Source of the DNA: Escherichia coli
GTDB taxonomy: Bacteria > Pseudomonadota > Gammaproteobacteria > Enterobacterales > Enterobacteriaceae
Strand: one strand, 5' to 3'
NCBI RefSeq assembly: GCF_030013595.1
Contig: NZ_CP122768.1
DNA: 64,000 nucleotides
The notes beneath the pieces were generated by a model. That model ran no database searches. It was given only the letters and a program-made list of their open reading frames with translations, and was not told where the DNA came from. Positions within the stretch are counted from its first letter, which is position 1. The number at the start of each line of letters is the position of its first letter. This document shows, in pieces, positions 46,601 through 46,911 of the stretch. Position numbers and translations under genes: made by a program.

Positions 46601-46907
46601 ATGACTCAAGGCTATGAACTGGTTGTGAAAGGAGTCCGTAATTTTGAGAATAAAGTTACGGTAACTGTAGCCTTACAGGACAAAGAACGCTTTGACGGTG
46701 AAATTTTTGGCCTGGATGTCGCCATGGACCGTGTTGAAGGAGCTACGCTGGAGTTTTATGAGGCAGCAGCCAGAATGAGCGTCCGGCAAGTCTTCCTGGA
46801 AGTAGCAGAAAAATTGTCAGAAAAGTTGAGTCTTATCTGCAGCATCAGTACTCCTTTAAGATTGAAAATCCTGCCAATAAGCACGAGCGTCCTCATCATA
46901 AATATCT

Positions 46908-46911
<4 letters not shown>
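46601..46911 (+). pseudogene. ydfR: YdfR-like (DUF1327) gene with apparent frameshift near 46815-46820
   Basis: N-terminal 80 aa in one frame; conserved C-terminus ...[26 protein letters not shown] is in +1 frame ending at TGA overlapping lysozyme ATG; shift lies in an A-run. Confidence 0.6.

What the first reader, a model, noticed from the sequence alone, without database searches (positions are those of the whole stretch)
46601..46911. Frameshift in ydfR-like gene within the lysis cassette, in an adenine run
The YdfR-like protein reads correctly for about 72 residues, then the conserved C-terminus continues in the +1 frame, with the shift inside the A-run at about 46812-46818. This is either real decay or a homopolymer sequencing error. 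The holin, lysozyme and Rz/Rz1 genes around it are intact.
Basis: seen in the sequence. Interest (0 to 1): 0.2.

Follow-up and report, generated by a model that had tools for sequence, protein, structure and literature searches.

The report
Inherited one-base frameshift in prophage ydfR
A small gene of unknown function in the lysis region of a defective E. coli prophage carries a real, inherited one-base deletion, already flagged as a pseudogene in public annotations; it is ordinary gene decay, not a sequencing error.

Summary
The frameshift is real but was described slightly wrongly. ydfR (DUF1327) starts at 46601 and reads natively for 75 codons. Its last 28 codons and stop lie in the -1 (=+2) frame at 46825-46911, not the +1 frame. 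The lesion is one A missing from the run at 46821-46824: GAAAAG here, GAAAAAG in K-12 and in 1714 of 1797 complete E. coli genomes carrying this segment.

It is not a one-off sequencing error. The same A4 sequence occurs in 45 complete genomes from unrelated sources. Eleven are identical over all 311 nt, with linked SNPs. The exact 129-aa product is recorded on 716 public contigs. RefSeq already labels it "frameshifted". One sub-lineage has added an IS1 insertion in the same gene.

Holin, lysozyme and Rz/Rz1 are base-for-base identical to K-12, apart from one synonymous holin change.

The deletion spares the conserved core of the family (residues 1-~72, reported to bind RNase E). It also creates an A_AAG slip site that could restore wild-type protein at low level. 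The allele may therefore be a hypomorph rather than a null; this is untested.

Ordinary, already annotated, low interest.

The parts
46381..46596 (+). essQ/essD holin, 71 aa, phage 21 S-type (class II) holin; intact
   Evidence: Pfam PF04971 at 116.7 bits. One synonymous difference from K-12, at 46593. In G3/10, whose DNA is identical to the window here, the protein has the same accession WP_000839590.1 as in K-12.
46587..46591 (+). Shine-Dalgarno AGGAG, 9 nt before the ydfR ATG, inside the end of essQ
   Evidence: Read directly from the sequence.
46601..46825 (+). ydfR codons 1-75 in the native frame. This is the whole conserved DUF1327 core: three beta-strands plus most of the long helix.
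   Evidence: Translation. Pfam match to positions 1-80. Family alignment shows conservation ending at about residue 72. AF2 model gives strands 5-14, 18-27, 34-43 and a helix 50-83.
46821..46824 (+). A4 run, the site of the 1-nt deletion (A5 in intact alleles). The resulting zero-frame reading GAA AAG forms an A_AAG tetranucleotide.
   Evidence: Alignments with ECCWS199, K-12 and phage Tritos. Census: 45 A4 against 1714 A5.
46825..46911 (+). Stranded ydfR codons 76-103 plus the stop, now in the -1 frame. The TGA overlaps the rrrQ ATG (ATGA).
   Evidence: Translation. DNA identical to K-12 downstream of the deletion.
46601..46990 (+). The ORF as it actually stands: 129 aa, made of 75 native residues plus 54 out-of-frame residues. 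It reads across the rrrQ start codon.
   Evidence: ORF list. The exact product is found on 716 public contigs, named 'Qin prophage protein'.
46908..47441 (+). rrrQ lysozyme, 177 aa, intact. It has no SD; its leader is A/T-rich (ATAAATAT).
   Evidence: Pfam PF00959. DNA identical to K-12. The leader is compared with other phages.
47438..47935 (+). rzpQ (Rz-type spanin, DUF2514), 165 aa, intact
   Evidence: Pfam PF10721 at 133.8 bits. DNA identical to K-12. Same accession WP_001071769.1 in G3/10 and K-12.
47631..47885 (+). rzoQ (Rz1-type lipoprotein, lipobox LTSC), 84 aa, embedded in rzpQ in another frame; intact
   Evidence: Translation identical to the same stretch of K-12. No family model matched it, so the name rests on position and on established knowledge of Rz/Rz1.

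Best explanation
This is a genuine, inherited 1-bp deletion in ydfR, the DUF1327 gene between the holin and the lysozyme of a Qin-type lambdoid prophage. One A was lost from an A5 homopolymer (A5 to A4 at 46821-46824), most likely by replication slippage.

Translation starts normally at 46601 and makes the first 75 native residues. It then runs out of frame for 54 residues, across the lysozyme start, to a stop at 46988-46990. The native 28-residue C-terminal tail is no longer made by standard decoding.

The allele is a minority variant (about 2.5% of complete genomes carrying this segment) and is passed on within E. coli lineages. It is most simply read as neutral decay of a non-essential gene in a prophage that is itself degenerating.

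Shown: the deletion, its site and frame, its recurrence in independent genomes, and the intact neighbours. Inferred: the slippage origin, neutrality, and the fate of the 129-aa product.
For: - Site and frame of the deletion.
- Frequency: the exact A4 60-mer is in 45 of 1797 records and the exact A5 61-mer in 1714 of 1797.
- Identity: 11 records are 100% identical over the whole 311 nt, and at least 31 have the 311-nt length. Every listed allele at 99.4% identity or more has 311 nt; the 312-nt alleles start at 99.0% and differ by two further SNPs.
- Haplotype: G11/A145 is shared by all inspected A4 copies.
- Product: the exact 129-aa protein is on 716 contigs and its D4 variant on 634. An intact allele with D4/T49 exists, P0014, with 1287 members. 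This gives a simple order: intact, then deletion, then D4G.
- Annotation: RefSeq/PGAP notes 'frameshifted'.
- Second lesion: IS1 is inserted at about nt 271 of the same gene on the same haplotype in ECONIH5, ABWA45, CX21 and C 236-04A.
- Prophage state in the window: the integrase is split by ISCro1.
- Expression: almost no ydfR reads were obtained in K-12 under standard growth (PMC13232886).
- Functional phages: Tritos and HannyBb carry full-length alleles that are 95-98% identical.
Against: - No reads for this particular assembly could be inspected.
- 'Decay' is not demonstrated. The frameshift falls just after the conserved core (residues 1-~72), and some family members naturally end at 71-73 aa.
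- Residues 1-72 alone bind the RNase E N-terminal domain in two-hybrid assays.
- The IS1 insertion also lies downstream of the core.
- The deletion creates an A_AAG site that could give some wild-type protein.
- All four combinations of residue 49 (A or T) and run length (A5 or A4) exist. The deletion has therefore either recurred or recombined, so a single neutral event is an oversimplification.
Confidence: 0.9

Rival explanations
1. Homopolymer sequencing or assembly error in this window: the true genome has A5 and an intact ydfR.
For: The lesion is a single-base length change in a homopolymer, the commonest kind of assembly error. The window also differs from its closest relatives by one T in two T-runs (33612 and 48245-48251).
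Against: The window's ydfR is 100% identical to 11 independent complete genomes. It carries the SNPs (G11, A145) seen in every inspected A4 copy. The exact product is on 716 contigs from several archives. An A5 run is short for systematic miscalling, and 1714 genomes sequenced with the same range of technologies read A5. The T7 run upstream of cspI is itself a common natural allele, found in 179 of 2094 records.
Confidence: 0.03
2. The A4 allele is a hypomorph or variant, not a null. The 129-aa product keeps the complete conserved DUF1327 core, and hence RNase E / RNA binding. In addition, a small fraction of ribosomes slip -1 on A_AAG (tRNA-Lys moving from AAG to the overlapping AAA) and make exactly wild-type YdfR.
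For: The family core ends at about residue 72. Tails are unrelated among members (103 to 287 aa), and some members stop at 71-73 aa. YdfR 1-72 sufficed for, and even gave broader, two-hybrid interaction with Rne-NTD and Rng (PMC13232886). In the AF2 model the frameshift removes only the last ~8 residues of the helix and a disordered tail. The zero-frame GAA AAG gives A_AAG, the classic minimal -1 shift site in E. coli (PMC5009743). Slipping there reads ...SEK|VESYLQ..., the exact wild-type sequence. Single-base deletions in E. coli were suppressed at 1-10% in aggregate in two test proteins (PMC10861913).
Against: Nothing was measured for this allele. The 54-residue aberrant tail has 4 Cys and GRAVY +0.30 and may destabilise the protein. 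There is no stimulatory element: the downstream fold has z = -1.09, and I read no SD-like motif at the usual distance upstream in the sequence. The P-site codon GAA cannot re-pair well at -1. The gene is barely expressed in K-12.
Confidence: 0.2
3. Evolved programmed -1 ribosomal frameshift: the two-frame arrangement is the intended gene structure.
For: The A_AAG tetranucleotide sits at the frame junction, and phages often use -1 frameshifting.
Against: About 95% of alleles, including those of the phages Tritos and HannyBb, are a single uninterrupted ORF. The A4 state is derived. There is no X_XXY_YYZ heptamer, no significant downstream structure and, on reading the sequence, no upstream SD-like stimulator. 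In a sub-lineage the downstream frame is further destroyed by IS1.
Confidence: 0.02
4. The frameshift matters mainly through its neighbour. In intact alleles the ydfR stop overlaps the lysozyme start (ATGA). With the deletion, ribosomes run 80 nt past that start, changing lysozyme translation. This would be a step in taming the prophage's lysis function.
For: There is a 4-nt ATGA overlap in K-12, Tritos and ECCWS199. No SD precedes rrrQ. The aberrant ORF ends at 46990, inside rrrQ.
Against: Homologous lysozymes in mEp460 and BP-4795 start about 50 nt after the ydfR-family stop. They have the same A/T-rich, SD-less leader (ATAAATATCC-ATG), so initiation does not need the overlap. There are no expression data. 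The effect of read-through ribosomes could be negative or positive.
Confidence: 0.08

Closest known systems
ydfR (b1555, P76160) of the Qin cryptic prophage of E. coli K-12
   Same: Same locus and gene order: quuQ/ydfT, cspF, cspB, ynfU, essQ, ydfR, rrrQ, rzpQ/rzoQ, cspI. Over the 1555-nt cassette there are only six differences. rrrQ, rzpQ and rzoQ are identical in DNA.
   Different: One A is missing at 46821-46824, and there are four non-synonymous SNPs (D4G, D37G, A49T, R59M). The product is 129 aa instead of 103 aa. The surrounding prophage is more complete than K-12 Qin, with terminase, portal, head and tail genes.
RefSeq pseudogene 'DUF1327 domain-containing protein, frameshifted' (e.g. 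H4P47_RS11735 in strain G3/10; ACR3H5_RS12835 in HCP5S3_I2)
   Same: 100% identical over the 311 nt. The flanks are the same: 3 differences in 6.3 kb against G3/10.
   Different: None within ydfR. The window differs only at 45016, 45751 and in a T-run upstream of cspI.
YdfR-family genes of functional lambdoid and Stx phages (Tritos, HannyBb, mEp460, BP-4795, Stx1a/Stx2 phages)
   Same: Same position, 4 nt after a phage 21-type holin and before the lysozyme. Same conserved N-terminal ~75 residues.
   Different: Those genes are uninterrupted. Outside the Qin type their C-terminal tails are unrelated and longer (104-287 aa), and they do not overlap the lysozyme start.
Frameshift mutations compensated by A_AAG -1 slippage (examples reviewed in Atkins et al. 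2016, PMC5009743; IS1222 G_CGA_AAG)
   Same: The same minimal Z_ZZN shift site, A_AAG, lies exactly where a -1 slip would restore the frame.
   Different: No stimulator is present, and no product or efficiency has been measured. Here the site is a by-product of the deletion.

Membership tests
YdfR family / DUF1327 (Pfam PF07041) | Match to the family profile above the curated cut-off (25 bits) | tested here: met
   The ORF as it stands scores 138.1 bits over profile positions 1-80. The repaired 103-aa protein scores 171.5 bits over 1-93/93. PHROG families 34145, 2735, 2091, 406 and 1085 also match, all of unknown function.
YdfR family / DUF1327 (Pfam PF07041) | Position between a phage 21-type holin and the lysozyme of a lambdoid lysis cassette | tested here: met
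   Window 46381-47441. The same order is seen in K-12, Tritos, mEp460 and BP-4795.
YdfR family / DUF1327 (Pfam PF07041) | Uninterrupted reading frame giving the full-length Qin-type protein (103 aa) | tested here: not met
   A 1-nt deletion after codon 75; the last 28 codons are in the -1 frame.
Genuine (inherited) frameshift pseudogene, as opposed to an assembly error | The same indel is present in independent assemblies and is linked to the same flanking variants | tested here: met
   45 complete-genome records carry it, 11 of them identical over 311 nt. The G11/A145 haplotype is shared. The product is on 716 + 634 contigs.
Genuine (inherited) frameshift pseudogene, as opposed to an assembly error | Read-level support in this very assembly | not testable with these tools
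   No reads are available.
Genuine (inherited) frameshift pseudogene, as opposed to an assembly error | Loss of function of the product | not testable with these tools
   The conserved core (1-~72) is retained; function has not been assayed.
Programmed -1 ribosomal frameshift site | Slippery heptamer X_XXY_YYZ at the frame junction | tested here: not met
   The sequence is A_GAA_AAG. Only the A-site tetranucleotide A_AAG qualifies.
Programmed -1 ribosomal frameshift site | Stimulatory downstream structure or upstream SD-like element | tested here: not met
   The fold of 46826-46905 gives -12.1 kcal/mol, z = -1.09, and 26 of 200 shuffles fold as well. On reading the sequence, there is no GGAG/GAGG/AGGA within 20 nt upstream of the A4 run.
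Programmed -1 ribosomal frameshift site | The two-frame arrangement is conserved among relatives | tested here: not met
   1714 of 1797 records, and all phage homologues examined, have one continuous frame.
Lambdoid lysis cassette of phage 21 type (holin, lysozyme, Rz/Rz1 spanins) | Intact holin, lysozyme and nested Rz/Rz1 genes | tested here: met
   Pfam PF04971, PF00959 and PF10721 match. The DNA is identical to K-12 apart from one synonymous holin change, and the rzoQ translation is identical. Lytic activity was not tested.

The most novel reading that the evidence does not exclude
The A4 allele is not dead. It still makes the whole conserved DUF1327 core, the part reported to bind the RNase E catalytic domain. 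The deletion itself also creates an A_AAG slip site at which a few per cent of ribosomes would regenerate exact wild-type YdfR. The lineage would then carry a self-compensating, hypomorphic or two-product version of a phage lysis-cassette gene.
Probability: 0.2. Interest if true: 0.25.

Novelty: already known. Interest (0 to 1): 0.08.

Why it matters
It matters little. The result settles an annotation question: the frameshift should be kept and labelled a pseudogene or variant allele, not 'corrected'. It also shows the lysis genes around it are unchanged from K-12.

Two side points have modest value for anyone studying YdfR, whose function is still unknown:
- The family consists of a conserved ~72-residue core with interchangeable tails.
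- A common natural allele (>1300 public contigs) removes only the tail. It could serve as a ready-made natural test of whether the tail matters for the reported RNase E / RNA binding.

Tried and rejected
- Lineage test: I searched the first 24 kb of the window to see whether A4 genomes form the window's closest clade. That region is a mosaic (best match 97-98% in several pieces), so the search was uninformative.
- Translational coupling of rrrQ to ydfR: rejected as a strong argument, because SD-less lysozyme starts with the same leader occur without any overlap in mEp460 and BP-4795.
- Downstream frameshift stimulator: none found.
- Membrane-like aberrant tail: the maximum Kyte-Doolittle 19-residue window is 1.39, below the usual threshold.
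- Function from databases: NCBIfam gave no model for YdfR, the holin, Rz or Rz1. PDB sequence search gave no hit. The BFVD fold search gave nothing at E <= 0.001.
- Literature: a search for 'DUF1327' found one incidental mention. A first attempt to find the E. coli tetranucleotide frameshift paper found nothing.
- Window-specific homopolymer errors: the T7 run upstream of cspI looked private but is a common allele.

Full report
**What is in the sequence**

The region is the lysis cassette of a Qin-type lambdoid prophage. It contains, in order:
- essQ/essD holin, 46381-46596
- a ydfR-type gene starting at 46601
- rrrQ lysozyme, 46908-47441
- rzpQ, 47438-47935, with rzoQ nested at 47631-47885

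cspF, cspB and ynfU lie upstream and cspI downstream.

The ydfR start has a good Shine-Dalgarno sequence (AGGAG, 46587-46591). Translation from 46601 gives 75 residues of YdfR, ending ...AEKLSEK. The remaining 28 residues and the stop ([28 protein letters not shown]) are read from 46825-46911. That start is 224 nt after the ATG, so the frame offset is +2, equivalent to -1. The ORF as it stands continues out of frame to 46990, giving 129 aa, and runs 80 nt into rrrQ.

Pfam DUF1327 matches profile positions 1-80 of this ORF (138 bits). It matches 1-93/93 of the repaired protein (171.5 bits).

**Where the lesion is**

I aligned the window with an intact allele (ECCWS199), K-12 MG1655 and phage Tritos. 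All three show one A missing from GAAAAAG, leaving GAAAAG with the A-run at 46821-46824.

- the site, by about 6-9 nt
- the number of native residues (75, not about 72)
- the frame direction (-1, not +1)

**Real mutation or sequencing error**

Among complete E. coli genomes, 1797 records contain this segment.
- 1714 carry the exact A5 61-mer.
- 45 carry the exact A4 60-mer.
- The other 38 differ in some other way.

Eleven records are 100% identical to the window across all 311 nt, and at least 31 have the 311-nt form. Every listed allele at 99.4% identity or more has 311 nt. The 312-nt alleles begin at 99.0% and differ by two further SNPs. The A4 genomes come from humans, pigs, ducks, a dog, a gull, mussels, water and soil, and from different laboratories.

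All inspected A4 copies share G at nt 11 and A at nt 145 of the gene.

In the large protein collection the window's exact 129-aa product is recorded on 716 contigs. A variant differing only at residue 4 (D4) is on 634. An intact 103-aa allele with D4/T49 also exists (P0014). The simplest order of events is: intact allele, then the deletion, then D4G.

RefSeq already annotates the gene as "frameshifted" in every A4 genome I opened.

Four A4 genomes that did not align over the full 311 nt carry an IS1 inserted at about nt 271 of ydfR, on the same haplotype. This is a second lesion in a sub-lineage.

A one-off homopolymer error in this window is therefore very unlikely. I could not inspect reads.

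**How many times it happened**

All four combinations of residue 49 (A or T) and run length (A5 or A4) exist:
- A49/A5 in ECCWS199
- T49/A5 in P0014
- T49/A4 in P0121 and P0122
- A49/A4 in P0123

 The deletion has therefore recurred or been moved by recombination. Rare database proteins show shifts at other short runs further along the gene. Some of these may be assembly noise.

**State of the neighbours and of the prophage**

From the essQ start to the rzpQ stop (1555 nt) the window differs from K-12 at six positions. One is a synonymous change in essQ. The other five are all in ydfR: D4G, D37G, A49T, R59M and the deletion. rrrQ, rzpQ and rzoQ are identical in DNA.

The prophage is more complete than K-12 Qin, with terminase, portal, head and tail genes. 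It is nevertheless degenerating: in the window the integrase gene is split by an ISCro1 element at 25798-28501.

**What YdfR is, and what the frameshift removes**

The family is small: 54 cluster representatives at E <= 0.001 among 1.84 billion proteins. Among phage records the matches are lambdoid and Stx-converting Escherichia phages. In the phages Tritos, mEp460 and BP-4795 the gene always follows a phage 21-type holin by 4 nt and precedes the lysozyme.

Only the first ~72-77 residues are conserved. The tails are unrelated and range from 103 to 287 aa in total length, and some members end at 71-73 aa.

An AlphaFold model built on 26 sequences has mean pLDDT 80.5. It gives three beta-strands (5-14, 18-27, 34-43), one long helix (50-83) and a disordered end.

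Structure and sequence searches gave little:
- PDB sequence search found nothing.
- The viral structure library gave nothing at E <= 0.001.

A 2026 study found that YdfR binds the catalytic half of RNase E. Residues 1-72 were sufficient, and the protein co-purified with RNA. The gene was hardly expressed in K-12 under standard conditions (PMC13232886).

The deletion at codon 75/76 therefore leaves the conserved, interaction-competent core intact. It replaces the hydrophilic 28-residue tail with 54 unrelated residues (4 Cys, GRAVY +0.30, no clear membrane segment).

**Could the frame be restored during translation**

The deletion turns GAA AAA GUU into GAA AAG UUG. This places A_AAG, the classic minimal -1 shift site of E. 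coli, exactly at the junction (PMC5009743). A -1 slip of tRNA-Lys there would read ...SEK then VESYLQ..., which is the exact wild-type protein.

Single-base deletions in two E. coli test proteins were suppressed at 1-10% in aggregate (PMC10861913).

Against a programmed event:
- There is no full slippery heptamer.
- There is no significant downstream structure (z = -1.09).
- Reading the sequence, there is no SD-like stimulator upstream.
- About 95% of alleles are a single continuous frame.

Any restoration would be incidental and low. It is unmeasured.

**Effect on the lysozyme**

In intact Qin-type alleles the ydfR stop overlaps the rrrQ start (ATGA), and rrrQ has no SD. This suggested translational coupling that the frameshift would break. 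However, the lysozymes of mEp460 and BP-4795 have the same SD-less A/T-rich leader with no overlapping upstream ORF. I therefore give this idea little weight.

**Verdict**

This is a real, inherited, already annotated 1-bp deletion in a non-essential prophage gene. It is ordinary and of low interest. The only open point is whether the allele is a null or a tail-less hypomorph.

Noticed in passing
window 25798-28501 (second copy at 11629-14328): An ISCro1 (IS66-family) element is inserted inside the prophage integrase gene, and a second copy lies in the chromosomal flank. The two flanks overlap by 8 bp on the uninterrupted relative, consistent with a target duplication. In the closest relative, HCP5S3_I2, the integrase is whole and the same IS sits in the S49 head protease gene instead.
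   Followed up: partly
window 46601-46911 compared with 46381-47935: Five of the six differences from K-12 in the 1555-nt lysis cassette fall in ydfR, and all four SNPs there are non-synonymous (D4G, D37G, A49T, R59M). rrrQ, rzpQ and rzoQ are identical. ydfR is the variable spot of an otherwise frozen cassette. Three of the four changes also occur in intact alleles.
   Followed up: partly
window 46916-46920 (A5 run in rrrQ codons 3-5); protein P0123: In other strains (19 contigs) a second one-A deletion in this run, on top of the ydfR frameshift, fuses the frameshifted YdfR to the lysozyme. The result is one 279-aa protein and the normal lysozyme start is abolished. The window itself has the intact A5 here.
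   Followed up: partly
about window 46871 (equivalent position); loci L005-L008: A sub-lineage of the A4 allele (ECONIH5, ABWA45, the CX strains, O125ac:H10 C 236-04A) has IS1 inserted at about nt 271 of ydfR, separating it from rrrQ.
   Followed up: yes
window 48245-48251 and 33607-33612: There are T-run length differences from the closest relatives. The run upstream of cspI is T7, against T8 in K-12, G3/10 and Tritos. The run near 33612 is T6 against T5. The T7 allele is a common natural variant (179 of 2094 records), but it was not seen together with the A4 ydfR allele in the records listed.
   Followed up: partly
protein family (alignment A3; P0147, P0152, P0166, P0172): DUF1327 is a ~72-residue core (three strands and a helix) with unrelated C-terminal tails. 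Several members consist of the core alone. The Pfam model (93 positions) extends into the Qin-type tail.
   Followed up: yes
protein P0160 (3128 aa, from the representative library): A giant protein with about 15 G2F-domain repeats matches YdfR residues 6-66 in six places (33% identity, E 5.6e-8). This could be a distant relationship of the core to a repeat domain, or a compositional match.
   Followed up: no
window 1-24000: The chromosomal flank (ynfF, clcB, rspAB and others) matches no complete E. coli genome better than 97-98%, and only in several pieces. The window's genome is therefore not closely represented in the complete-genome set in this stretch.
   Followed up: no
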